Below, piece by piece: positions 1-9,275 of a stretch of DNA of 9,275 bases; position 1 is the stretch's first letter, and every line of letters starts with the position of its first letter. The position numbers and the translations under genes are program-made. Location of the stretch: IMG/VR virus record IMGVR_UViG_2671181100_000005, one strand, 5' to 3'. Source of the DNA: a virus (taxonomy: Duplodnaviria > Heunggongvirae > Uroviricota > Caudoviricetes). The notes beneath the pieces were generated by a model that worked only from the letters and a program-made list of their open reading frames with translations, was not told the DNA's origin and searched no databases.

Positions 1-90
1 GGTCATGGCCTCCATAGTGATGGCGGGTCCTCCTTGTGGGGTGCCCTGCCACGGGGCGGGAGCATCGCGGAAAAAGGCTAGTTTTTGCAT
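1..90 (-). CDS. 5' end of an unidentified ORF running off the left edge
   Basis: Minus-strand frame is open from ATG at 90..88 (MQKLAFFRDAPAPWQGTPQGGPAITMEAMT...) to position 1. An alternative ATG at 15..13 is preceded by AAGGAGGA. No similarity to lambda gpA N-terminus by eye. Confidence 0.2.
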   Translation of the reverse strand, partial: MQKLAFFRDAPAPWQGTPQGGPAITMEAMT

Positions 91-251
91 TTTTATTCGT
101 CATCACCACCAATGCAATATATTGATATGACTTGATGTTTTATTTTTCGGTGTCGATTTCGATTGTTTTTTGTTCATCACTGACGCATAACGCCCACCAG
201 CGCAACGCTGAAAGCCAGTCAGTAAACTGGCTTCGGTCATTGTGCACTACG

Positions 252-794
252 TTACTTGTCTTTATCCGGCTGAAACTTATCAGGCACATTTCCGGTAGTT
301 TCCATCAGATAATCGGACAGCATTCGCGGGATGTTTTCATCAAGTTTTGTGCATGCGTTACAGGCTCTGACAACTTCTTTTTTCAGGCCATCCAGCATGG
401 CGGGGGTCATCTGTGGGAAGCTCCTTTGCATAGTAAGCGGCAGGCTGCCCATGATTGAAGAAATCTGACTCGCCAGTTTTGAAAGCGCATATATACAAAA
501 TTCCGTACTAATCACATCGCCGCGTTCGCGCTCGTTTTTAAGCTCCTGCGCCTCCGCCTGCGCTGTCAGCAATCTGATCCTGACTCGCAAAAGCTCATCA
601 TTATCAATCTCGCCTTTGTCGTCTGTAATCTGGTTAATTGCATTGCTAACCCGATTGTCTATTACGCTGGCAACATCATAAAACGCCTCGCGGCCTTTAC
701 GTTCAACGGGAGTCACTCCCCACTTGTCGAACGCTGTCGCACTTACACGGCAGCTTTGCGCCATGTTTTTTTTGTTCATCAGGTGCGATTTCAT
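252..794 (-). CDS. Terminase small subunit, lambda Nu1-like
   Basis: ORF-track protein matches my recollection of lambda Nu1 across the length, e.g. LLTAQAEAQELKNERERGDVISTEFCIYALSKLASQISSIMGSLPLTMQRSFP versus Nu1 LTRAQADAQELKNARDSAEVVETAFCTFVLSRIAGEIASILDGLPLSVQRRFP, and C-terminal LDENIPRMLSDYLMETTG versus LDELIPGLLSEYIEQSG. Start chosen at ATG 794..792 (GGGGA 6 nt upstream); ATG at 779 is an alternative. Lies directly downstream of the cos site, as in lambda. Confidence 0.85.
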   Translation of the reverse strand: MKSHLMNKKNMAQSCRVSATAFDKWGVTPVERKGREAFYDVASVIDNRVSNAINQITDDKGEIDNDELLRVRIRLLTAQAEAQELKNERERGDVISTEFCIYALSKLASQISSIMGSLPLTMQRSFPQMTPAMLDGLKKEVVRACNACTKLDENIPRMLSDYLMETTGNVPDKFQPDKDK

Positions 795-799
795 CAATA

Positions 800-990
800 T
801 CCCCACTTAAGTAATGTTTCAGGTTGGTGTATTGGCTTTATCTTTTCCTTTTTATTCATAGAGATAGAGCGAACAACAAAACCACCACCAGCACCCGAAA
901 AAGGCTCATAAATAGCGAAAACCCGCGAGGTCGCCGCCCCGTAGCCTACCGGATCGCCGGAAAGGACCCGCCAGCCAGAACGGGCCCTAA
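800..990 (-). other. Lambda-type cos site: cosN 12-nt cohesive end at 928..939 (complement), cosQ-like at about 945..985, divergent cosB-like at about 800..927
   Basis: Reverse complement of 907..940 reads GGGCGGCGACCTCGCGGGTTTTCGCTATTTATGA, identical to the first 34 nt of lambda as I remember them, then diverges. Reverse complement of 941..973 reads GGCGGGTCCTTTCCGGCGATCCGGTAGGCTACG, close to the lambda right end (GACGGGTCCTTTCCGGTGATCCGACAGGTTACG). Confidence 0.75.
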
Positions 991-995
991 TTTCA

Positions 996-1379
996 TCAAC
1001 CAATCAACTTATAGCGACCATCCCGTGCATTGCGACGTACACGCTCAATCTTGAGGCATAGCGCCGCATCTGGCTTTTTTGGGACAGGTACGCGGCAATA
1101 TTCAGAAGCTCGAGGAATATTGTTTATCCAGTCGATCACTTCACTTAAATACCAGGCCTTACGCCCTTCCGTAACCTGTACGCGTTCGGGGAACTCTCCG
1201 CGAGCCTCAAGGTTTAGCAATGTGCGACGGCTAAGGGTAGTAAGTTCCATCACCTGATTCATATCAACAAGGCGTTCACTTAAACGCATTTTGTCAGCAA
1301 TAGCCTTTAATTCCTCTACTGCTGGATCCGGATACATCATTTCGGCAATTGGCTTAAGGTCATTGTAATGATTCTGCAT
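996..1379 (-). CDS. AlpA-family HTH DNA-binding protein, second copy, with N- and C-terminal extensions
   Basis: Core MELTTLSRRTLLNLEARGEFPERVQVTEGRKAWYLSEVIDWINN resembles Phage_AlpA-type HTH proteins. ATG at 1379 is preceded by AAGGGGGA. Starts 11 nt after the D-like gene stop and ends next to cosQ. Confidence 0.7.
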   Translation of the reverse strand: MQNHYNDLKPIAEMMYPDPAVEELKAIADKMRLSERLVDMNQVMELTTLSRRTLLNLEARGEFPERVQVTEGRKAWYLSEVIDWINNIPRASEYCRVPVPKKPDAALCLKIERVRRNARDGRYKLIG

Positions 1380-1390
1380 TGTATCCCCCT

Positions 1391-1732
1391 TTACACACGA
1401 GCCAGCGGCTGAACAGAAATACCTGAGCCAACAAACGCGGCAACCTTTGCCGACAGTTCTTTTACAGACTCAGGCCAGTTCAGAGCATCAACATTTAAAA
1501 CACCTGTCTTATAAACCTGTGCCTGTGTTTTTTTCGCTGTGTCGATTTGTACAGCGGAAACATAAACCGCTTTGCCTGCGCTCGTTCCATCCCATACCAC
1601 TAGCGCACCAGTTGCATCTTCCTGCATCAGTGGCGTAAACGCAGGTATTACCCCTTTATTGGCTGAAAATATCCCCAGCGTAGTAACCAGTGCTTCAGTG
1701 CCAGACATGAGTTCAGTGTAATGAGTAGCCAT
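1391..1732 (-). CDS. Head decoration protein, lambda gpD-like
   Basis: PAFTPLMQEDATGALVVWDGTSAGKAVYVSAV and YKTGVLNVDALNWPESVKELSAKVAAFVGSGISV parallel lambda gpD [32 protein letters not shown] and [35 protein letters not shown] (from memory). 113 aa versus 110 aa for gpD. RBS GGGGGAG precedes the ATG. Confidence 0.85.
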   Translation of the reverse strand: MATHYTELMSGTEALVTTLGIFSANKGVIPAFTPLMQEDATGALVVWDGTSAGKAVYVSAVQIDTAKKTQAQVYKTGVLNVDALNWPESVKELSAKVAAFVGSGISVQPLARV

Positions 1733-1741
1733 TGCTCCCCC

Positions 1742-2788
1742 TTAGCCAATGCGAACGGTAACAAAACGATTGATGCGGGCCGGTATTGGCTGTGGTGCTG
1801 AATGTGTCTGCACATATTCAATAGCCGGATCACCAGGCACAATATAGTTTTTCGGTGCAAGTTCGGCTTTAGTCAGCCCCATCCGGATTAGCTCCGGATC
1901 CTGAATACCGCCATAAGCGACAATCCCCTGAAGAGCCGTATTGCCAAGCACCATCAAATCAGGATCAAGGAAATATTTTTCAGTTCCGTCCTCGTCGGTA
2001 TAACGCCCGCTGTAAACAACAATCGCAACATCGCCCATATACCCTTTAAAACTCACCGAATCACCAAGGTCTTTAAGGGCCGTTTCCAGTTCGGAATTAG
2101 AACCACGACGAGTATCCAGAGCCTCTTTTATCGCCCTGAATGAACGGTATTTCTTCCATACATTACCGCCCATAATGATAATATTAGTGACGCCCTCACT
2201 AAATTCTGCGTAGCTCTCAATATCATCATTTGGATCAAAAGCTTCTTTATCCTTACCTGACCACTCAGCACCGCCAGACTGAGTGATGATATTTTGTGGT
2301 TTAATATTCCAGTCCAGCTCATAACGTTCAATACCATCGCCCTCAATGATATTTTTCCCCGTTGTGATTGCCTGAACGGCAAGCCATTCAATACGTGCAC
2401 GAATAGCTTTAGCCTGATTTACAATCGCCTGTTTAACTTTAATATTACGCGCTCCAAAAGCATTGTATTGCTCAGGTGATACACCAGCAGGGCGCACAGC
2501 TAACTTATTTGGATCAATGCTGCTTTTCGGTTTCATATAGCCAGGGCGAATTGTTTTTGATTCGTATCCCTCATCTCGTGAAACTTTACTGCCCACCATA
2601 GGAGAGCAAAACGCCGCGATCGGGATATTTGGATCGTCGATCGTATCAAGAATAATGTCTCTCGATTCAAACATTACCGAGCGAGTGAAAAACAAACTGG
2701 TAAACAACGCATTTAATTTTTTTTGCACATCTTCAGCATTAGCCACCTGCACAAGCTGTGTAGGCGAATATAAGTCAACCATACTCAT
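1742..2788 (-). CDS. Major capsid protein, lambda gpE family
   Basis: Long collinear similarity to lambda gpE as I recall it: NIITQSGGAEWSGKDKEAFDPNDDIESYA, DTRRGSNSELETALKDLGDSVSFKGYMGDVAIVVYSG, MVLGNT, PGDPAIEY. Start set at the MSM motif (ATG 2788, or 2782 with AAAGAGG 6 nt upstream), like lambda E's MSM start. The longer track ORF (start 2869) is probably an upstream extension. Confidence 0.9.
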   Translation of the reverse strand: MSMVDLYSPTQLVQVANAEDVQKKLNALFTSLFFTRSVMFESRDIILDTIDDPNIPIAAFCSPMVGSKVSRDEGYESKTIRPGYMKPKSSIDPNKLAVRPAGVSPEQYNAFGARNIKVKQAIVNQAKAIRARIEWLAVQAITTGKNIIEGDGIERYELDWNIKPQNIITQSGGAEWSGKDKEAFDPNDDIESYAEFSEGVTNIIIMGGNVWKKYRSFRAIKEALDTRRGSNSELETALKDLGDSVSFKGYMGDVAIVVYSGRYTDEDGTEKYFLDPDLMVLGNTALQGIVAYGGIQDPELIRMGLTKAELAPKNYIVPGDPAIEYVQTHSAPQPIPARINRFVTVRIG

Positions 2789-2953
2789 CCTCTTTACATT
2801 CATTACAAATAATTGTGAATATATTCTATTACCGATGTCTGCTATGCGAATACATGCAACCAAGTGCAATGTTGTATAAAATATGCCGTGACAACTTCAG
2901 TGCTGATAATTCGTGTTAATGTATTTACTTCCTTTGGTCGGGATTTATGTAGC

Positions 2954-2993
2954 ATGCCGGAAAATCTATTTTTTTCCGGCATCTTTTTGTTTG
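2954..2993 (+). terminator. Perfect 11-bp inverted repeat stem-loop followed by a T-tract (candidate intrinsic terminator, plus-strand orientation)
   Basis: ATGCCGGAAAA (2954..2964), 7-nt loop, TTTTCCGGCAT (2972..2982), then CTTTTTGTTTG. Lies just downstream of the ssb stop on the opposite strand; on the minus strand the U-tract is absent, so the orientation and role are uncertain. Confidence 0.4.
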
Positions 2994-2999
2994 CAGAAT

Positions 3000-3422
3000 T
3001 TAAAACGGTATATTATCGCCGTACGGATCATCATTCCCCGACTGTTGTTTTGCCCTGTTCAGTGCGTCAGTGGCCTGCCCCTGCTGGCCTTTTTTGCCGC
3101 CCGGTCGCGCTGTTCGCGCACTGATCACGCTGTCTGCGATAACCTGCCAGCCCTGCCGCGTTTCGCCGTTCTGGCCTGTCCACTGGCTTACCTGCATGTT
3201 ACCCGCCACGCTCACCAGTTCGCCTTTGTGGTGTTTTGCCAGTGCGTCGGCCTGTCTGCCAAACGCCAGGACGGATAACCACATCATCGCCGTTCCGTCA
3301 TCTGCCTGGCTGCACGGAAGGGGGACCGCCATACTAGCCATCGCCATTTGTGTACCCTTGCTGGTGGTCTTTAACTGCGGATCAGCCACCAGCCGTCCGT
3401 AAGCCGCTATCTGTGCTGTCAT
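3000..3422 (-). CDS. ssb: Single-stranded DNA-binding protein (SSB)
   Basis: OB-fold-like N-terminal region (YGRLVADPQL..., WLSVLAFGRQADALAKHHKGELVSVAGNMQVSQWTGQNGETRQGWQVIADSV) parallels E. coli SSB. Gly/Gln-rich linker and acidic C-terminal tail ...DDPYGDNIPF match the SSB signature ...DDDIPF. Start ATG overlaps the upstream ORF stop (ATGA). Confidence 0.85.
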   Translation of the reverse strand: MTAQIAAYGRLVADPQLKTTSKGTQMAMASMAVPLPCSQADDGTAMMWLSVLAFGRQADALAKHHKGELVSVAGNMQVSQWTGQNGETRQGWQVIADSVISARTARPGGKKGQQGQATDALNRAKQQSGNDDPYGDNIPF

Positions 3423-3664
3423 GCTGTCTGCTCTCCGGTTTTAACGTTGATGGTTGTCACCTGTTCCGCTTCGGCAATCTCCCGTTCTGTCAGCGTGGCA
3501 AAGTTTGCAGCTGCCGTTGTCATGAATGCGCTAATCAGTTCGGGATGTGCTTTCGCATATCCTTCCCCGGCGTTGCGGTCGATGATTTTTATCGACACCC
3601 TTAACCAGTGTTCCGTCAAATCAAGGGCGTGCGATTGTGATTTTTTTATGTGCTTCGCTGTCAT
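3419..3664 (-). CDS. Hypothetical protein (81 aa), translationally coupled to ssb
   Basis: ORF stop overlaps the ssb start in an ATGA arrangement. RBS is weak (GAGA) and there is no recognisable motif. The competing plus-strand ORF in the same region looks non-protein-like. Confidence 0.4.
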   Translation of the reverse strand: MTAKHIKKSQSHALDLTEHWLRVSIKIIDRNAGEGYAKAHPELISAFMTTAAANFATLTEREIAEAEQVTTINVKTGEQTA

Positions 3665-3708
3665 AGGCTTTATCTCACAGCAGTAAATTAAAATTTTTGC
3701 GTTTTAAC

Positions 3709-3905
3709 CCTTCACCTGTTCACCTTTTGATATTTTATCTTTTAATTCATAATGTTAAGGGGTGAACAGTTTCACAAAAACTATTCACCAACTGTTCACC
3801 ACTGTTCACNNNNNNNNNNNNNNNNNNNNNNNNNNNNNNNNNNNNNNNNNNNNNNNNNNNNNNNNNNNNNNNNNNNNNNNNNNNNNGTGAACAGTGGTGA
3901 ACAGT
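3709..3905. repeat. Iteron array of octamer TGTTCACC / GGTGAACA (P4 ori/crr-type), candidate replication origin
   Basis: Exact octamers at 3717..3724 and 3793..3800 (TGTTCACC) and 3761..3768 and 3896..3903 (GGTGAACA). Gap-truncated copies at 3803..3809 and 3887..3893, plus degenerate copies (3709..3716, 3783..3789). Sits immediately downstream of the primase-helicase gene. Confidence 0.6.
3810..3886. other. Run of 77 N (unresolved or masked sequence) inside the iteron region
   Basis: Directly visible in the sequence. Flanked by a perfect 19-nt inverted repeat (3791..3809 ACTGTTCACCACTGTTCAC; 3887..3905 GTGAACAGTGGTGAACAGT). Confidence 0.95.
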
Positions 3906-3917
3906 TATTCCATAAGT

Positions 3918-5735
3918 TTAATTTTTGCTATCGTCATTAGTGACCGATACACATGATGGCATCCAGTCTTCTGATTCCTCCGTCAGTGTCACGTTTGAAC
4001 GCAAACCGTGCTTCGTTTTCCGTTTCATATACTCCCTGCCATATTCCGCCATTGCCCCCGGCATATCTTTACCGAAGCGCGTCAGTGTTACAGGTTTACC
4101 AAACCCATGTGCCTTCATATAAGCCAGATAGGCATGATAGAGATACCTGCGCGGGCTGAATGGCACAATTTCAGCATTACCCACTAACAGGCCATCACAC
4201 ATTACCGACGCCATGAGATAGCCGCAGAAGTCCACCAGCGAATCACCTTCACGCTTTATCGCGAGTGCTTCTTCTGATTTCTGCTGCTCATATAAAAGGC
4301 GTCTGGCTTCGTCCTGGTCAGCAAACCGTGTAAGCAGATGACGAATCACTACCGCCAGCTCACCTTCTATTTTTTCCGCCAGCATTGAATCGCGTTCGTT
4401 CTCCGGTACAACTTCCGAAAAATTGAATATCACCCGACGTCGCGAGATCCCCCCACTGCGGTCACTGAATGACATAGCGTTATTGTTAACCGCCAGCACT
4501 ACTGCCGGGATACGCGTTGAATATGGGGCTTTATGTTTTGGGTCGATTGCCACCTTGTCACCGCCTGTAATAGCCTTAATTCCCGCCCCATCACCAGCGT
4601 AGCGGGTCATATCCGGCATGATAATCAGCGAAAAGCCAACCACTAACGCGCGTTCCCTTGCATCTTCCAGCGCCTTCATGCTCGCTGATACTGTATTAGC
4701 CTTACCCGCCAGCATGGTGCAAATCTCCGCCATCACGCTTTTACCACTTCCCCCTGGACCTGTTACCTCAATGAATAACTGCCAGTCGTACCGGTTCGCC
4801 AGCACCATGAATAATGCAGCCAGTACGCGATCCGCCTTGCGGTCATTCTCAGCCACCGAACGGCGTAACCACTTCCAGAAATTCGGCGCATGTGTTGCCA
4901 GCGTTTCCCCCTCTGCTGGTGGGCTGAAAGGTAATTCACTGGCAATTAACAACCAGTCGTTTTTGTTATGCTCCCGAAAATTACCTGTTCTGGTATCAAA
5001 TACCCCGTTACTGAATCCAATCAGGTTACGGGCTGTATTCCCCATAACAGGCAAACTTAACTTCATGGTATCGACCGCCGATTTAATGGCGTTCTGCGAA
5101 TAGCTGATCTCCGCATCAATGAAAATCTGTGCCATAGCTCGCTGTAATTCTTTATCCTGTACTGGCTCCCATACAACGCCGTTGTAATGGTGAACAGTGT
5201 CAGAGTCAGCATGAATCGCCAGTTCACCGCCATAATGTGCCAGGAGAACTTCGCCGCGTTGACTTGCTCCCATCTGGTTAAGCGCCAGTGATGAAGCGTT
5301 ATCGTCTTTTACCCGCTCTTTTTTCTTTACAGGCAGTTCAACTACCTTTTTCTTTTCCGCCTGCTCTGCCCGTTCACGTTCCAGATATTCGCGCCAGTTC
5401 TCCCGTTTCTGGCTGTGCATTCCTTCAGGGTAATAATCAGCATCCCTGACACCTGCCGCTGCCAGTTTCTGCCCGATGGTATTAACAAGCCCCGGACGCA
5501 ATAACCCCGCCTGGTAGAGACGCACGCGATAGCGTCCGTCCGGTACGATTTGCAGGTTGTCCAGTTCGGCAAGTTGTTGCTCTCCAAGCCAGACAGGTGG
5601 CACGTTATCGCCAGCCAGTCGCCCGTCCTGTTCCTGCCACTGCTTCGCATGTGCCCACGCATCACTACCCGCAAAAATGATGACTTCCGTCATTTTGTCA
5701 CGCGGCTGGTGTTTTAAATTTGGCGCTTTTTTCAT
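3918..5735 (-). CDS. Replication protein: primase-like N-terminal region fused to an SF3 (D5 / P4 alpha-type) helicase
   Basis: Walker A motif VTGPGGSGKS with a downstream hydrophobic-acidic Walker B-like stretch. Size and position match a satellite pri/alpha gene, followed by its iterons. Start set at ATG 5735, which overlaps the upstream ORF stop (ATGA); the track ORF starts 15 nt further upstream at 5750. Confidence 0.88.
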   Translation of the reverse strand: MKKAPNLKHQPRDKMTEVIIFAGSDAWAHAKQWQEQDGRLAGDNVPPVWLGEQQLAELDNLQIVPDGRYRVRLYQAGLLRPGLVNTIGQKLAAAGVRDADYYPEGMHSQKRENWREYLERERAEQAEKKKVVELPVKKKERVKDDNASSLALNQMGASQRGEVLLAHYGGELAIHADSDTVHHYNGVVWEPVQDKELQRAMAQIFIDAEISYSQNAIKSAVDTMKLSLPVMGNTARNLIGFSNGVFDTRTGNFREHNKNDWLLIASELPFSPPAEGETLATHAPNFWKWLRRSVAENDRKADRVLAALFMVLANRYDWQLFIEVTGPGGSGKSVMAEICTMLAGKANTVSASMKALEDARERALVVGFSLIIMPDMTRYAGDGAGIKAITGGDKVAIDPKHKAPYSTRIPAVVLAVNNNAMSFSDRSGGISRRRVIFNFSEVVPENERDSMLAEKIEGELAVVIRHLLTRFADQDEARRLLYEQQKSEEALAIKREGDSLVDFCGYLMASVMCDGLLVGNAEIVPFSPRRYLYHAYLAYMKAHGFGKPVTLTRFGKDMPGAMAEYGREYMKRKTKHGLRSNVTLTEESEDWMPSCVSVTNDDSKN

Positions 5736-6031
5736 TTCTGCTCTCTCCACGCGGCAATCATGTTTTTCAGTTCCTGTAGTTTTTTATCCACATCCACACG
5801 TGACACATGGTTATTTCTGGAAGTCGGGATTTCCCGCCGGAATCTGCAAATAAAGATCTCCACGTTCAGCGAACTAAGAAATGAATAGCCATCACGGATA
5901 AAATACACACGGTCAAACATCAGTTCTTTTACCGTTACTCTATTACCGTTCTTATCCAGATAAATAGCGCCGGGGATAATTTGGGGGTGTGCATAACCGC
6001 TGGCAGTCAAGCCAGATAAATACGTTCTCAT
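5732..6031 (-). CDS. Hypothetical protein (99 aa), coupled to the primase gene
   Basis: Stop overlaps the primase start (ATGA). GGGGA lies about 9 nt upstream of its ATG. No recognisable motif. Confidence 0.55.
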   Translation of the reverse strand: MRTYLSGLTASGYAHPQIIPGAIYLDKNGNRVTVKELMFDRVYFIRDGYSFLSSLNVEIFICRFRREIPTSRNNHVSRVDVDKKLQELKNMIAAWREQK

Positions 6032-6037
6032 GATTAT

Positions 6038-6358
6038 TTATCCCCGATTTGAATCAGTATTCGCTTTCTTTATAGCATTTAATGCATCTGTGGCATTTTT
6101 AATGGTGCACCGTAACGAAATATCAAAATGTCCAAGCATTGCCAGTAACAAACCGATATTACCCATATCAATGCGCATGGCCTTTTCGTCATAGTCCTCA
6201 TTTTCTGACGCATGCCACATCAGGCTACCAATTGACGCAACAGCCATTGATATATTGTCAGTAGCCCCATCCGCAGCGGAATAAACCTTTTTAGCAATAT
6301 CATGCTCACAGTTAAAATGCGGATTAATCAGGTACTGGTAATTTGACATATCAGGCAT
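6038..6358 (-). CDS. Hypothetical protein (106 aa)
   Basis: ATG at 6358 overlaps the stop of the upstream 67-aa ORF (ATGCCTGA). RBS AGGGGG is present. Stop lies 6 nt before the next ORF. No recognisable motif. Confidence 0.55.
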   Translation of the reverse strand: MPDMSNYQYLINPHFNCEHDIAKKVYSAADGATDNISMAVASIGSLMWHASENEDYDEKAMRIDMGNIGLLLAMLGHFDISLRCTIKNATDALNAIKKANTDSNRG

Positions 6359-6554
6359 GGCACACCCCCTGACGAATACGGGCGGCGAATACCATCACGC
6401 AGCCAGCCGGGGATTGCTGGCGTGCTTCCTGTTCGCTGGTGGCCACGATGTGAATCACGCGCGGTTGTGCGGTGCTCAGGGCGATAAAACGCCAGATGTA
6501 TTTATTCAGGTTGTACGAGTCCCGCCCTTGCGGGTGTATGGTATGATTTCTCAT
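6351..6554 (-). CDS. Hypothetical protein (67 aa), first gene of the minus-strand operon leading into the primase
   Basis: This is the last 67 codons of the 348-aa track ORF, starting at ATG 6554 with GAGG 5 nt upstream. The upstream part of that ORF is low-complexity and antisense to a better plus-strand gene. Confidence 0.45.
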   Translation of the reverse strand: MRNHTIHPQGRDSYNLNKYIWRFIALSTAQPRVIHIVATSEQEARQQSPAGCVMVFAARIRQGVCHA

Positions 6555-6697
6555 AGCTGCCTCGATAATCTTGCTATCGTTGGTGGTTAGAAGCCCCGTT
6601 ACTGCTCCTACAGTGCGGGGTTTCGTCGTTTCTGCACCTTGCATTAACAAGGTGTAAGCAACTTTATTTATAGGTGGCTTACATGTCAATGCTTTTA

Positions 6698-6729
6698 TGT
6701 AAGACTTTTTATGTGTATATTGTCTTACA
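6698..6729. promoter_or_regulatory. 8-bp inverted repeat (TGTAAGAC ... GTCTTACA) in the divergent promoter region; candidate operator
   Basis: TGTAAGAC at 6698..6705 and GTCTTACA at 6722..6729, 16 bp apart, overlapping a TATATT -10-like hexamer (6716..6721) about 30 bp upstream of the 6751 start. Confidence 0.35.
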
Positions 6730-6750
6730 CTTTCATTGAGAGGATTACAG

Positions 6751-7056
6751 ATGGCTACAGGTTCAAAAAACGCAAAATCACAATCACTGACAGCTCGGAT
6801 CCCGCATGATGTTATTGAAGGCATGGAATCCGTAAAACTGGACGGTGAAAGCAACGCCGGATTCATAGTAACCGCCATGCGCGGTGAAATCGCCCGCCGC
6901 CAGGCAGAAGGAAGCGGAGAAAACCTCCTGGTTTCTTCGCTCGATGCCCTAGCGCAGGTGGAAAAAATCGGAGTCAAAGCCGCCGAGGAGATCGGGCAAC
7001 TCGTCACCGTCGCGCGTGAAGAACTCCAGCGACGCAAGGTCAAAGAGCAGGAATAG
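6751..7056 (+). CDS. Small DNA-binding-like protein, possible ribbon-helix-helix regulator (101 aa)
   Basis: ATG at 6751 with GAGAGGA 7 nt upstream. N-terminal SLTARIPHDVIEGMESV resembles RHH (CopG/Arc-like) beta-strand-helix starts; the C-terminus is predicted helical and charged. Divergent from the minus-strand operon. Confidence 0.5.
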   Translation: MATGSKNAKSQSLTARIPHDVIEGMESVKLDGESNAGFIVTAMRGEIARRQAEGSGENLLVSSLDALAQVEKIGVKAAEEIGQLVTVAREELQRRKVKEQE

Positions 7057-7113
7057 CCACTATCAGCGCCATAGTTTGAGGAACGCAGGCGCATTGCTTT
7101 ACAGGACAGCACC

Positions 7114-7293
7114 ATGAGCGACACAGAATCAACCAAAACACCATCACCAACTCGTAAGAGACGACGCAAAAATATAGCGCATGAACATGAATCAGAAAGA
7201 TTCGCACCTTGTTCGTTTGCTCTTGAGAAATTCCTTAAAGAGCACAGGAAAAAGCTCTCGTTGCAAACCTTGGAACGAACCAAATCTGACTGA
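7114..7293 (+). CDS. Small basic protein (59 aa), hypothetical
   Basis: Hand-translated ORF MSDTESTKTPSPTRKRRRKNIAHEHESERFAPCSFALEKFLKEHRKKLSLQTLERTKSD, below the track's 60-aa cutoff. AGGA lies 7 nt upstream. Followed by a strong terminator hairpin. Confidence 0.35.
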   Translation: MSDTESTKTPSPTRKRRRKNIAHEHESERFAPCSFALEKFLKEHRKKLSLQTLERTKSD

Positions 7294-7358
7294 TCACATT
7301 GCCCACCAGCCGCAAATGTGGCATTGTTGGTGATGCGTTCAAGTTTAGTGTGTATCCA

Positions 7359-7386
7359 TTGGCGACCGCCCCCGGTCGCCTTTGTT
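7359..7386 (+). terminator. Rho-independent terminator (plus strand), between convergent genes
   Basis: GGCGACCG (7359..7366), loop CCCC, CGGTCGCC (7371..7378), then TTTGTTTT. Confidence 0.6.
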
Positions 7387-7407
7387 TTATATGTCATATG
7401 CTCCCCT

Positions 7408-7617
7408 TTACGCTGCCTTACCTGAATTAATGCGATCCCGGCTTTTAACCCATTCCATAACCTCGGACAGCAGCCAACCTACAGAACGCCCACCAAGATT
7501 ACGGCGAGACGGAAAGCTCCCTTTTTTCTCCAGTTCGTAGCGTGTAGTGCGACACACTCCAGTTAACTTACGACATTCATCCTCACGGATTACGCGATCT
7601 TCATTTATTTCACGCAT
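7408..7617 (-). CDS. alpA: AlpA-family phage regulatory protein (transcriptional activator / excision regulator)
   Basis: RVIREDECRKLTGVCRTTRYELEKKGSFPSRRNLGGRSVGWLLSEVMEWV is a typical AlpA HTH. Start set at the internal Met (MREINED..., 70 aa, the usual AlpA size). The track ORF extends to 7704 through an AT-rich stretch that looks more like promoter than coding sequence. Confidence 0.8.
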   Translation of the reverse strand: MREINEDRVIREDECRKLTGVCRTTRYELEKKGSFPSRRNLGGRSVGWLLSEVMEWVKSRDRINSGKAA

Positions 7618-7997
7618 ACAAAAACCTACATAAAAATTACGTATATAAACTTTTCTCTTAGCTGTAGATATATGAGATCGGATATTACTTAGATTCTTTT
7701 TCACCTATTAAATTAAAAACACAACCATGCTAAAGGCTTTGTTCGCTAAGGTTCGTAGAAGCTCGTTAGTGTTTAAAATCGTGTCACGAGTTTTTAAGCG
7801 ACGCAACAAAAAATGTCGTCATTTGGCATGACACCTGAATTACCTCATTAAAAACAAATAGATAAACCATCAGATGTTGGAACAATCAAGAAACAGAGAA
7901 TAAGAACTCAGAAGAAGACATTTCAATTTTTTTCGATAGTTGACACATATAAAGAGAAGATATTTGCAGATATTCCCCGATATTCTAAGATCTATTC

Positions 7998-8030
7998 ACG
8001 GCTGTAATCTCTTAAAGAAAAAACAGCCGT
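7998..8030 (-). terminator. Hairpin just downstream of the integrase stop (weak terminator candidate)
   Basis: ACGGCTGT (7998..8005) and ACAGCCGT (8023..8030) form an 8-bp stem with a 17-nt A/T-rich loop. There is no clear U-tract after the stem on the minus strand. Confidence 0.25.
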
Positions 8031-8036
8031 AATTTG

Positions 8037-9275
8037 TCAAGAATTTTGGGGGTAAATTCGCGGGGTCATAACAACGATTTTTTCATCATTGTTCTGGAGA
8101 AGCTCGAGACGGTCTACCCATAGATTAAGAGCATCACGTTTTGCATCAAGGTAGCGGGAGTGGTTATAGACTCGTTGCATCCCTGGCATCTGGTGGGCTG
8201 TAAGCTGCTCGACAATATGCGGATCCACGCCTAAATCGTTCAGCATGGTTGTAAATGTGTGCCGGATATCGTGTAACGTCCAGGGGGCTTGATTAATTCG
8301 TCTGTGCGCTGTTCTTCCGTACTCTGCTACCGAAGATTGTCCTTTCAGTTCACCAAGCAATAAGCCTGTGTGTCTGTTCTGCTCCACCAGTTGCGTGACG
8401 AACGGCAAAATGCTTTCCGGTATTGGCCTGAATATGGCGACCTTCGTTTTGCTGTGCTCCTTCGGTACTGTCCAGAGCATTTCTTTAAAATCCCACTCCT
8501 GCACCTCAGAGCGCCTTAGCTCAGTGGTACGGCATCCAAAAACAATCAGGAGGCGAATTAGGGCGCTGTAGTATGGCGGGAATATTTTGTCATCCAGGGC
8601 GCGGAGTAATTCCCCAAGCTCCTTATTTGTTAGTACGCGCTCGCTCACTTCTGCTTTTTTTCCCACATCACCGACAACCATATCATCAAGAACGTTGCTG
8701 ATTGCGTATCGTCGTTTTCGGCAGTACTTAAGCGCCTGTTTGCATACCTGTAGCAAAAATCCGGCAGATACTGGGCTTCGCTTTGCCATCTGGTCAAAAC
8801 ATGCCAACCAGTGCCGTAGCTCGCATTTTTCCAACGGCAAAGCGCCAATCTGGCTGATTATGTGTTTATTGATCCGGCTTTTCAGTGATTCGTAGTCAGT
8901 GCGCTTTTCCTTTGCATACGATTCAAGCCAGTAAGTGAGCGCTTCCTTAACTGTCACGGGGGCTAACGCATCCTGTACAGCACGATTAAGCTCATAGCGC
9001 GGATTTTTCCCCTCAGCCAGCCAGGCGCGACACTGTGCTGCTTTTTCCCTGGCTGCTTTCAGACTCAGATCGGGATAATTGCCCAGTCTCAGACGTTCCG
9101 GTGATACCTGCCTACCAGTTCCGGCCCTGTAAGTGAAATACCAGGTTAACAGGCCGCTGGTGGAATGTCTTACGCTAAGATTGCCACCGTCATTAAAAAA
9201 GGCGTTTTTTGTGGTTGGTGATCCGCTTAATTTTCGTAAAAGAGTGTCGCTAAGTCTATGAATTGCGCTGCTCAT
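8037..9275 (-). CDS. int: Tyrosine recombinase / integrase, P4-type
   Basis: N-terminal arm-type region (NDGGNLSVRHSTSGLLTWYFTYRAGTGRQ... YPDLSLKAAREKA) is typical of P4-family integrases. C-terminal catalytic motifs HDIRHTFTTMLNDLG and RVYNHSRY are present. The ATG sits exactly at the window edge (9275). Confidence 0.92.
   Translation of the reverse strand: MSSAIHRLSDTLLRKLSGSPTTKNAFFNDGGNLSVRHSTSGLLTWYFTYRAGTGRQVSPERLRLGNYPDLSLKAAREKAAQCRAWLAEGKNPRYELNRAVQDALAPVTVKEALTYWLESYAKEKRTDYESLKSRINKHIISQIGALPLEKCELRHWLACFDQMAKRSPVSAGFLLQVCKQALKYCRKRRYAISNVLDDMVVGDVGKKAEVSERVLTNKELGELLRALDDKIFPPYYSALIRLLIVFGCRTTELRRSEVQEWDFKEMLWTVPKEHSKTKVAIFRPIPESILPFVTQLVEQNRHTGLLLGELKGQSSVAEYGRTAHRRINQAPWTLHDIRHTFTTMLNDLGVDPHIVEQLTAHQMPGMQRVYNHSRYLDAKRDALNLWVDRLELLQNNDEKIVVMTPRIYPQNS

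What the first reader, a model, noticed from the sequence alone, without database searches (positions are those of the whole stretch)
3791..3905. 77-N gap sits at the centre of a perfect 19-nt inverted repeat
The flanks ACTGTTCACCACTGTTCAC and GTGAACAGTGGTGAACAGT are exact reverse complements, each made of iteron units. The unresolved segment is therefore probably the centre of a long palindrome or more iteron copies, which would explain an assembly failure. The content is unknown and could hide further origin structure.
Basis: seen in the sequence. Interest (0 to 1): 0.45.

Follow-up and report, generated by a model that had tools for sequence, protein, structure and literature searches.

The report
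Assembly gap inside a satellite replication origin
The run of 77 Ns is an ordinary short-read assembly gap that hides 111 bases of a well-known kind of replication origin, the P4-type repeat cluster just downstream of the replication gene of an E. coli phage satellite island; identical islands in hundreds of finished genomes show what is missing.

Summary
The N-run is at 3810-3886 (77 N). It is abutted by exact inverted repeats, which are 20 nt long in the window (3790-3809 / 3887-3906), not 19.

The window is 100% identical on both sides to E. coli CFS3313, where the gap holds 111 nt. Of 184 related occurrences, 155 have 111 nt and none has 77. A k-mer simulation puts contig ends exactly at both N-run edges only for k=21, because the real inverted repeat is 23 nt. 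So the N-run is a scaffolding gap of mis-estimated size, not masking and not a real variant.

The hidden 111 nt contain three perfect TGTTCACC iterons, one degenerate iteron and an 80% A+T spacer. The whole 287-nt intergenic region consists of two modules placed head to head, forming an imperfect palindrome of about 230 nt. Each module is collinear with the annotated phage P4 ori.

The region lies directly 3' of a P4 alpha-like SF3 helicase gene. The C-terminus of that protein matches the P4 origin-binding domain (PDB 1KA8, E=1e-24). This is the known layout of a PICI/P4-type satellite origin.

Interest is low.

The parts
3709..3809 (.). Left origin module, visible in the window. Iterons lie at 3709-3716 (CCTTCACC, degenerate, +), 3717-3724 (+), 3761-3768 (-), 3782-3789 (TATTCACC, +), 3793-3800 (+) and 3803-3810 (+, its last base lost in the Ns). 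Read on the minus strand, the order is 3 iterons, 1 inverted iteron, an A+T-rich spacer, then 2 iterons.
   Evidence: Iteron scan (L001 coordinate minus 1701 gives the window coordinate). Alignment A1 with P4 ori gives 66% identity, collinear. blastn hits the annotated P4 ori type 1 repeats with E=4e-6.
3725..3760 (.). A+T-rich spacer of the left module (83% A+T). It is the candidate DNA-unwinding region.
   Evidence: against 53% A+T for the locus as a whole. [quoted passage not shown]
3790..3809 (+). Left arm of the perfect inverted repeat that abuts the gap (20 nt in the window, 23 nt in resolved homologues).
   Evidence: It is the end of a unique-21-mer run in the simulation.
3810..3886 (.). 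The 77-N scaffolding gap. It stands in for 111 nt: CCTTGAAGCTCAATAAACAATCAAAAAGGTGAACAGTGAATAGTTTGGTGAACAGTTCATAAATAACTGTTCACCCTATAATATACTGATATAAAAGATATTTATGACAGG. That stretch comprises the palindrome axis, the right module's iteron triplet, its inverted iteron and its 80% A+T spacer.
   Evidence: 100% identical flanks in NZ_CP026939.2; 111 nt in nearly all homologues, none with 77; k=21 boundaries.
3887..3906 (+). Right arm of the perfect inverted repeat. It is the iteron pair of the right module (iterons at 3886-3893 and 3896-3903, minus orientation) and ends 14 nt before the stop codon of the replication gene.
3918..5735 (-). Pri-Rep / P4 alpha-like initiator gene (605 aa from the annotated start; the mechanical ORF runs to 5750). 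Domains: D5_N, an SF3 helicase P-loop (DUF5906) and a C-terminal Pox_D5 winged-helix origin-binding domain.
   Evidence: Pfam. PDB 1KA8, the P4 alpha origin-binding domain, E=1.4e-24 over aa 502-598. 50.4% identity to P4 alpha over aa 150-600. RefSeq annotation.
3000..3664 (-). Genes just downstream of the origin: an 81-aa protein of unknown function (3419-3664) and a single-stranded DNA-binding protein (3000-3422).
   Evidence: Pfam SSB E=1.7e-15; phrog_1231; annotation.

Best explanation
The N-run is a scaffolding gap made by a short-read de Bruijn-graph assembler working at, or equivalent to, k=21. A 23-nt perfect inverted repeat (AACTGTTCACCACTGTTCACCCT), built from two iterons in each orientation, collapses into one graph node. 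The flanking contigs therefore stop k-1 = 20 nt into the repeat. The short loop between the arms was dropped, and the scaffolder bridged the contigs with an estimated 77 Ns where 111 nt really lie.

What is hidden is most of the right half of the replication origin of a phage satellite island of the PICI / P4-like kind. The island carries integrase, AlpA, Icd-like, DUF4222, Pri-Rep, ori, SSB, lambda E/D-type capsid genes and a Nu1-type small terminase.

The origin is the whole 287-nt intergenic region 3' of the Pri-Rep gene. It consists of two modules placed head to head, each with 3 iterons, 1 inverted iteron, a spacer of about 35 nt at 80-83% A+T, and 2 iterons. Each module is collinear with the P4 ori.

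Inferred mechanism, by analogy with P4 alpha and with the tested EcCICFT073 pri-rep-ori. After helper-phage induction and excision, the C-terminal winged-helix domains of Pri-Rep bind the TGTTCACC iterons. The A+T-rich spacers melt. The SF3 helicase rings load themselves, and the symmetric layout would suit one ring per direction. Replication of the island then follows.

Shown here: the sequence anatomy, the homology to P4 ori and to the P4 origin-binding domain, conservation of the layout, and the fit to an assembly artefact. Inferred: binding, melting, helicase loading and the direction of replication.
For: Gap.
- The window equals NZ_CP026939.2 at 100% over 1-3809 and 3887-9275, with 111 nt in between.
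- All listed full-length E. coli matches imply 110-111 nt.
- Of 184 occurrences of the left-flank 31-mer in IMG/VR and metagenome contigs, 155 have 111 nt, 6 have 110 nt, 1 has 121 nt, none has 77 nt and none carries an N-run.
- In the 7 distinct contexts shown for the identical Pri-Rep protein, the spacing to the next gene is 287 nt.
- In the k-mer simulation on L001, unique-k-mer runs end at 5510 and restart at 5622, which are window 3809 and 3887, only for k=21. These are then the only breaks in 11 kb. For k of 25 or more there is no break.

Origin.
- Ten TGTTCACC sites (nine exact, one with a single mismatch) lie in the 287 nt. Only 2 other exact copies occur in 11 kb.
- Alignment A1 shows the left module (reverse complement), the right module and the P4 ori to be collinear, with 61-68% identity.
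- blastn hits the annotated 'ori type 1 repeat' features of P4.
- The Pri-Rep C-terminus matches 1KA8.
- Iteron columns are about 6 times less divergent than spacer columns among 67 variants.
- The same palindromic layout recurs downstream of the orthologous gene in Klebsiella, Citrobacter, Raoultella, Kluyvera, Enterobacter, Serratia and Symbiopectobacterium; only one such module was found in Proteus, and in E. ruysiae (L189) the iteron orientations do not fit the layout. The iteron cores there are lineage-specific.
- The literature places the origin of Gram-negative PICIs immediately 3' of pri-rep, as iteron sets flanking an AT-rich region, and shows this to be functional for EcCICFT073 (PMC6092414).
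Against: - The source assembly, its assembler and its gap annotation could not be found. There was no exact hit in genome contigs, and none of the loci fetched from IMG/VR and metagenomes carries the N-run. The k=21 story is therefore a fit, not a record.
- The simulation used only 11 kb, not the whole genome.
- No experiment on this Pri-Rep allele or this origin was found.
- The initiator lacks a recognisable primase domain in its first 150 aa, so the parallel with P4 alpha is incomplete.
- P4 needs two separated sites, ori and crr. Whether both modules here are needed, or which one fires, is unknown.
- The conservation statistic comes from related, non-independent sequences.
Confidence: 0.85

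Rival explanations
1. The Ns are deliberate or length-preserving masking, or the source strain really has a shorter 77-nt segment there.
For: The tool notes say that some public stretches are masked as N. The source record was not recovered.
Against: The true length is 111 nt in 155 of 162 resolved occurrences and never 77. It is also 110-111 nt in every listed E. coli genome. Both N-run edges coincide to the base with the k=21 unique-k-mer limits of a 23-nt inverted repeat, which arbitrary masking would not do. A 77-nt segment could not hold the module that is conserved in all relatives.
Confidence: 0.05
2. The gap hides a long perfect palindrome or a much larger iteron array that is inherently unclonable or unsequenceable.
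For: Perfect arms abut the gap. The region folds as one long hairpin.
Against: Hundreds of short- and long-read assemblies resolve the region as the same 111 nt. The palindrome is imperfect, with 56-nt arms 75% complementary and modules 68% alike. For k of 25 or more there is no ambiguity.
Confidence: 0.03
3. The iteron cluster is mainly a control element rather than the site where replication starts. It could be a crr-like enhancer, a copy-number or handcuffing site, or an operator for the downstream genes. The true start would then lie elsewhere in the island.
For: Its position directly 3' of the alpha-like gene is that of P4 crr, not P4 ori. The crr units align with the 3' half of the modules. 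The downstream genes on the same strand must be transcribed through or from this region.
Against: All clustered iterons of the island are here; elsewhere in 11 kb there are only two lone TGTTCACC copies. The modules are closer to P4 ori (61-66%) than to crr (49-58%). PICI origins map to exactly this position and are sufficient, together with pri-rep, in EcCICFT073. No promoter-like site was found.
Confidence: 0.08
4. The palindromic region encodes a structured RNA.
For: Strong hairpin potential. Sub-threshold Rfam hits to hairpin families.
Against: The Rfam hits are to plant and animal miRNA precursors, occur on both strands, and are far below the gathering scores (43 bits against 249). That is what any long inverted repeat gives. 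No promoter or terminator was found. Conservation falls on the 8-nt protein-site repeats, not on stem pairing, and the spacers vary freely.
Confidence: 0.02

Closest known systems
Phage P4 ori and crr with the alpha protein (GenBank X51522; origin-binding domain structure PDB 1KA8)
   Same: The octamer is identical: TGTTCACC, annotated in P4 as 'ori type 1 repeat'. Each island module is collinear with the P4 ori, with the same order and the same spacings (10, 11, 21-22, 43, 10 nt) of 3 iterons, 1 inverted iteron, an A+T-rich spacer and 2 iterons. The initiator shares 50% identity with alpha over its helicase and origin-binding parts, and matches 1KA8 at E=1.4e-24. Like crr, the cluster lies directly 3' of the initiator gene.
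   Different: P4 has one ori module, plus a separate crr made of two direct 120-bp repeats about 4.5 kb away. Here two ori-like modules are adjacent and inverted. The initiator is 605 aa, not 777, and its first 150 aa are unrelated to the primase part of alpha. The rest of the island is not P4-like: there is no sid, delta or psu, and instead it carries lambda E/D-type capsid genes, a Nu1-type TerS and SSB.
Replication origins of Gram-negative PICIs, e.g. EcCICFT073 (Fillol-Salom et al. 2018, PMC6092414)
   Same: The origin lies immediately 3' of pri-rep and consists of sets of iterons flanking an A+T-rich region. The island has int, alpA, pri-rep and terS and is transcribed in one direction.
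   Different: Whether this Pri-Rep allele and these iterons are among those drawn in that paper's Fig. 2a could not be checked, because figures are not held. Here there are two A+T-rich spacers in a head-to-head double module. The element also carries capsid and decoration genes.
Palindromic viral origins served by SF3 helicase initiators (SV40 large T antigen, papillomavirus E1)
   Same: An SF3 helicase with its own origin-binding domain, and inverted binding sites around A+T-rich DNA. This is recalled from general knowledge; the Pfam PPV_E1_C match is weak, E=2e-4.
   Different: There is no sequence relationship between the origins. Double-hexamer loading here is only an inference.
Scaffold gaps at short inverted repeats in de Bruijn-graph assemblies
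   Same: The contigs end k-1 bases into a repeat shared in both orientations, the small loop contig is dropped, and the gap is filled with an estimated number of Ns (simulation).
   Different: The assembler and the source record are unknown.

Membership tests
P4-type alpha-dependent origin | Clustered type I iterons TGTTCACC in both orientations | tested here: met
   Ten sites (nine exact, one with one mismatch) lie in the 287-nt intergenic region of the resolved homologue; six of them are visible in the window. The same octamer is annotated as 'ori type 1 repeat' in X51522.
P4-type alpha-dependent origin | Module architecture as in the P4 ori: 3 iterons, 1 inverted iteron, an A+T-rich spacer, 2 iterons | tested here: met
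   Alignment A1 is collinear for both island modules and the P4 ori. blastn E=4e-6 to the P4 ori.
P4-type alpha-dependent origin | A cognate initiator with an alpha-type C-terminal winged-helix origin-binding domain and an SF3 helicase | tested here: met
   1KA8 E=1.4e-24. Pfam D5_N, DUF5906 and Pox_D5. 50.4% identity to alpha.
P4-type alpha-dependent origin | Initiator carries the DnaG/Toprim-type primase domain of alpha | tested here: not met
   Residues 1-150 do not align with alpha, have no Pfam domain and hit only phrog_2850 'unknown function'.
P4-type alpha-dependent origin | Two separated cis sites, ori and crr, with crr made of two direct 120-bp repeats | tested here: not met
   There is one cluster only, made of two adjacent inverted modules. 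Elsewhere in 11 kb there are only two lone octamers.
P4-type alpha-dependent origin | Initiator binds the iterons and replication starts there | not testable with these tools
   Needs EMSA or footprinting and replication assays.
PICI replication origin (Gram-negative lineage) | Origin immediately 3' of the pri-rep gene | tested here: met
   The last iteron ends 14 nt from the Pri-Rep stop codon. Criterion taken from PMC6092414.
PICI replication origin (Gram-negative lineage) | Sets of iterons flanking an A+T-rich region | tested here: met
   The spacers are 83% and 80% A+T and lie between iteron sets.
PICI replication origin (Gram-negative lineage) | Host element has int, alpA, pri-rep and terS, is transcribed in one direction, and has no tail or lysis genes | tested here: met
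   Annotation of the identical island and Pfam. The element is about 9.6 kb and lies next to clpS.
PICI replication origin (Gram-negative lineage) | Helper-phage-induced excision, replication and packaging | not testable with these tools
   Experimental criterion. It was shown for EcCICFT073, not for this element.
Capsid-forming PICI (cf-PICI) | Full head module: HK97-type capsid, protease, portal, head-tail connectors | tested here: not met
   Only a lambda E-type capsid protein, a D-type decoration protein and a Nu1-type TerS were found, with no portal or protease. The identical Pri-Rep module does occur next to a ClpP-protease/capsid gene in other genomes.
Assembly (scaffolding) gap | N-run length differs from the true sequence length | tested here: met
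   77 N against 111 nt.
Assembly (scaffolding) gap | Gap edges coincide with the limits of unique k-mers at a repeat | tested here: met
   Exact at both edges for k=21 only.
Assembly (scaffolding) gap | Source record declares a gap (AGP or assembly_gap feature) | not testable with these tools
   Source record not found.

The most novel reading that the evidence does not exclude
The head-to-head pair of P4-ori-like modules is a fused equivalent of P4's separated ori and crr, and it loads two SF3 helicase rings in opposite directions. The same layout has been kept across Enterobacterales while the iteron core switched (TGTTCACC, TGTCTACC, TGTCCGCC, TGTCCACC, TGTGCACC, TCTCTACC), together with changes, including a 5-residue insertion, in the wing of the origin-binding domain. 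If so, this would be a natural recognition code that sets replication specificity and incompatibility among co-resident satellites.
Probability: 0.3. Interest if true: 0.4.

Novelty: already known. Interest (0 to 1): 0.15.

Why it matters
Practically, the gap can be filled with confidence from identical islands, and nothing exotic is hidden in it. It is also a clean example of a diagnostic signature. When an N-run is abutted by exact reverse-complement arms of length k-1, the gap is a de Bruijn-graph collapse at a short inverted repeat, and the number of Ns says nothing about the true length.

Biologically, it confirms that this very common E. coli satellite uses the P4 iteron with a P4 alpha-like origin-binding domain. 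The flanking sequence queried (window 3300-4400) matches 1589 of 5426 complete genomes at least in part, and 528 of them carry the region almost in full. The origin has a symmetric double-module form. This is of modest interest for understanding replication specificity and incompatibility among satellites that share a cell.

Tried and rejected
- The source contig was sought with the flanks plus a 77-nt gap in IMG/VR, and with the left-flank 31-mer in genome contigs, IMG/VR and metagenomes.
- An exact-protein look-up returned only finished contexts with the full 287-nt spacer.
- Rfam gave only sub-threshold miRNA-hairpin matches on both strands. These were rejected as a symptom of the palindrome.
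- The promoter and terminator scan found nothing in the region.
- A literature search for the octamer itself gave only unrelated primer sequences.
- The original P4 alpha/ori paper is not held, and a further P4 search was uninformative. The statements that alpha binds type I iterons and that ori and crr are both required therefore rest on the GenBank annotation, on the name of PDB 1KA8 and on my own knowledge.
- I looked for origin-binding-domain columns that separate iteron classes perfectly. None was strictly diagnostic across all sequences; only the wing segment shows a class-linked insertion.
- The 71-nt inverted repeat was rejected as N-on-N matching.

Full report
**1. Observation**

The window has one N-run, at 3810-3886 (77 N). 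The bases that abut it, 3791-3809 ACTGTTCACCACTGTTCAC and 3887-3905 GTGAACAGTGGTGAACAGT, are exact reverse complements. The match extends one base outward on each side, to 20 nt (3790-3809 / 3887-3906). Each arm is two copies of ACTGTTCAC(C) spaced 10 nt apart. TGTTCAC occurs 7 times in the window against 1.1 expected, with 0 of 200 shuffles reaching 7, and six of the seven lie in 3717-3903. The repeats are therefore real. The '71-nt, 92% complementary' arms come from N matched to N. The mechanical ORF 3752-3940 runs through the Ns.

**2. What lies in the gap**

The window is 100% identical to E. coli CFS3313 (NZ_CP026939.2, locus L001) over 1-3809 and over 3887-9275. In that genome the two flanks are separated by 111 nt, not 77: CCTTGAAGCTCAATAAACAATCAAAAAGGTGAACAGTGAATAGTTTGGTGAACAGTTCATAAATAACTGTTCACCCTATAATATACTGATATAAAAGATATTTATGACAGG.

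- The query (window 3300-4400) matches 1589 of 5426 complete E. coli genomes. 528 of them carry the region almost in full, and every full-length row listed implies 110-111 nt.
- The left-flank 31-mer occurs 184 times in 183 IMG/VR and metagenome contigs. The segment is 111 nt in 155 cases, 110 nt in 6 and 121 nt in 1. In 22 cases the right flank was not found within 400 nt. None has 77 nt and none has Ns.
- The identical Pri-Rep protein was found in 7 distinct genomic contexts, always with a 287-nt spacer to the next gene.

**3. Why the gap exists**

In the resolved sequence the perfect inverted repeat is 23 nt, AACTGTTCACCACTGTTCACCCT (L001 5491-5513 and 5619-5641). I listed, for several values of k, the runs of k-mers that are unique on both strands in L001.

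- For k=21, the runs are 1-5510, 5494-5638 and 5622-11135.
- L001 5510 is window 3809 and L001 5622 is window 3887, which are exactly the two edges of the N-run.
- For k=19 or k=23 the edges are 2 nt off.
- For k of 25 or more there is no break.
- At k=21 these are the only breaks in the 11 kb, which agrees with the single gap in the window.

The 20-nt arms seen in the window equal k-1. This is the signature of a de Bruijn-graph assembly in which an inverted repeat collapses into one node. The loop contig of about 145 nt is discarded, and a scaffolder then inserts an estimated number of Ns.

Length-preserving masking, or a genuine 77-nt allele, would explain neither the length nor the base-exact edges. 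The source record itself was not found, so the assembler is inferred.

**4. What the region is**

The gap lies in the 287-nt intergenic region (L001 5366-5652) directly 3' of a 605-aa gene on the minus strand (window 3918-5735).

That protein has the following features.
- Pfam D5_N (167-296), the SF3-helicase P-loop domain DUF5906 (330-438) and Pox_D5 (501-596).
- Residues 502-598 match PDB 1KA8, the origin-binding domain of phage P4 alpha, at E=1.4e-24.
- The protein is 50.4% identical to P4 alpha over residues 150-600.

The surrounding element lies next to clpS in CFS3313. It carries integrase, an AlpA-type regulator, an Icd-like protein, DUF4222, Pri-Rep, the intergenic region, an 81-aa protein, SSB, a lambda E-type capsid protein, a D-type decoration protein, a second AlpA-family protein and a Nu1-type small terminase. 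All the main genes are on one strand. This is the gene set of a phage satellite of the PICI kind.

**5. Anatomy of the resolved region**

TGTTCACC sites (+ and - give orientation; L001 coordinates):
- Left of the gap: +5418, -5462, +5483 (TATTCACC), +5494, +5504.
- Inside the gap: -5538, a degenerate copy near 5547, -5557, +5578.
- Right of the gap: -5621, -5631.
- A degenerate CCTTCACC sits at 5410.

Only two other exact copies exist in the 11 kb.

The octamer is the one annotated as 'ori type 1 repeat' in the P4 record X51522. A blastn search of the region hits that P4 ori (78.7% over 75 nt, E=4e-6).

Aligning the left half (reverse-complemented), the right half and the P4 ori shows that all three are collinear. 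Each has three iterons, one inverted iteron about 21 nt further on, an A+T-rich spacer that puts the next iteron 43 nt away, and then two iterons 10 nt apart. Pairwise identities are 61-68%. The P4 crr units align only over the 3' half, at 49-58%.

The origin is therefore two P4-ori-like modules placed head to head.
- The longest inverted repeat has 56-nt arms that are 75% complementary.
- L001 5400-5648 folds as one hairpin of -49.2 kcal/mol, z=-8.3 against shuffles. The loop is at about 5518-5531, which is 8-21 nt into the gap.
- The spacers are 83% and 80% A+T, against 53% for the locus.

The gap hides the axis, the right module's triplet, its inverted iteron and its spacer.

**6. Comparative support**

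Among 67 distinct variants of the region, iteron columns outside the search pattern are about six times less divergent than the other columns (0.008 against 0.048). Variable columns number 20 of 73 against 83 of 183 (Fisher p=0.011). This is descriptive only, because the sequences are related.

In 72 loci from other species that encode a relative of the protein, the repeats again lie just downstream of the gene.
- In Klebsiella, Citrobacter, Raoultella, Pluralibacter, Kluyvera ascorbata and Rahnella the octamer is TGTTCACC. In the first five, every copy in the locus lies in that 500 nt.
- Other lineages have variant cores: TGTCTACC (E. ruysiae, Kluyvera georgiana, Enterobacter hormaechei), TGTCCGCC or TGTCCACC (Serratia), TGTGCACC (Proteus) and TCTCTACC (Symbiopectobacterium).
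- Most of these variant-core lineages keep the layout [2]-spacer-[1 inverted]-[3] || [3]-[1 inverted]-spacer-[2]. In Proteus only one such module was found, and in E. ruysiae the orientations do not fit it.

A layout that is kept while the repeat sequence changes with the protein is what is expected of binding-site arrays for the C-terminal domain. In the alignment of those domains, the segment that aligns to window residues about 577-590 carries a 5-residue insertion in the TCTA, TCCG and TCCA classes. This is a lead, not a test.

**7. Mechanism**

Shown: the anatomy, the homology and the conservation described above.

Known from the literature:
- In Gram-negative PICIs the origin lies immediately 3' of pri-rep and has iteron sets flanking an AT-rich region. 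The EcCICFT073 pri-rep-ori segment drives plasmid maintenance (PMC6092414).
- P4 alpha has primase, SF3 helicase and a C-terminal winged-helix DNA-binding domain (PMC2777425).
- That alpha binds the type I iterons of ori and crr, and that both sites are needed, I take from my own knowledge of the P4 literature (Ziegelin et al. 1993; Flensburg and Calendar 1987; Yeo et al. 2002). It is consistent with the GenBank features.

Inferred: after induction and excision, Pri-Rep binds the iterons through its C-terminal domain. The A+T-rich spacers melt, the helicase loads itself and the island replicates. The symmetric double module would suit the loading of two rings facing opposite ways. SSB is encoded just downstream.

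Open point: the first 150 residues have no primase signature, so priming may depend on the host.

**8. Rivals**

- Masking or a true 77-nt allele is rejected on length and on the edges (section 3).
- A perfect or unclonable palindrome is rejected because hundreds of assemblies read the same imperfect 111 nt.
- A purely regulatory or crr-like role cannot be excluded by sequence. It is less likely, because this is the only iteron cluster, it is closer to ori than to crr, and it sits where PICI origins map.
- A structured RNA is rejected. The Rfam hits are far below threshold, are on both strands, and are to miRNA hairpins. There are no promoter or terminator matches. Conservation is on the octamers, not on stems.

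**9. Comparison, novelty and verdict**

The region works like, and is homologous to, the P4 ori with its alpha-type initiator. It also fits the published description of PICI origins.

It is not a copy of the P4 arrangement. There are two adjacent inverted modules instead of a separate ori and crr, and the initiator has no alpha-type primase domain. It is not a full capsid-forming PICI either, because it has no portal or protease.

The element is very common and is already annotated in public genomes. The gap itself is an artefact. Novelty: already known. Interest: low (0.15).

The least ordinary reading still open is that the symmetric double module is a fused ori plus crr, and that the lineage-specific iteron cores with matching wing changes form a natural specificity code.

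Noticed in passing
window 5286-5735 (minus strand), residues 1-150 of Pri-Rep: The N-terminal 150 residues have no Pfam domain, do not align with P4 alpha's primase part and hit only phrog_2850 'unknown function'. The public label 'DNA primase family protein' therefore rests on the helicase and origin-binding parts. Whether this protein primes at all is open.
   Followed up: partly
window 6351-7397 (minus) and about 6751-7056 (plus): A 348-aa ORF with no family hit is called as a gene in some assemblies (L260). RefSeq CFS3313 instead calls a 67-aa Icd-like gene (window 6351-6554, minus) and an opposite-strand YlcI/YnfO gene. AT skew flips to +0.3 to +0.4 at 6750-7200, which favours the plus-strand gene and suggests the long ORF is spurious.
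   Followed up: partly
L259, L261, L262 compared with L258, L260 and the window: The identical Pri-Rep, 81-aa protein and SSB module, with the same 287-nt origin spacer, is joined in other genomes to a ClpP-protease/HK97-type capsid gene and to a different integrase and regulators. In this window it is joined to lambda E/D-type capsid genes. The replication modules are exchanged between satellite types.
   Followed up: partly
L186-L234, the 450 nt downstream of the alpha-like gene: The iteron core differs by lineage: TGTTCACC, TGTCTACC, TGTCCGCC, TGTCCACC, TGTGCACC, TCTCTACC. In most of these lineages the palindromic double-module layout is kept. The origin-binding domains of the TCTA, TCCG and TCCA classes carry a 5-residue insertion in the segment aligned to window residues about 577-590.
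   Followed up: partly
L005 (IMGVR_UViG_2690316346_000015), about 3850-4400 and 9440-9990: One 9991-nt contig holds two copies of this origin region about 5.6 kb apart. They are 93% identical to each other. This suggests two related satellites in tandem sharing the same iteron type.
   Followed up: partly
window 996-1379 and 7408-7617 (both minus): The island carries two AlpA-family helix-turn-helix genes. One is next to the integrase and one lies between the decoration-protein gene and terS.
   Followed up: no
window 1 and 9275: The window ends exactly on the start codon of the integrase gene (8037-9275, minus). It begins 12 nt after the end of a neighbouring annotated gene. The window was therefore probably cut along gene calls of a predicted island, not at attachment sites.
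   Followed up: no
L001 5409-5637: Rfam's plant miRNA precursor model MIR821 matches on both strands at E=1e-6 and 1e-4, but at 43 bits and 34 bits against a gathering score of 249 bits. This is a false lead that any long imperfect palindrome will produce.
   Followed up: yes
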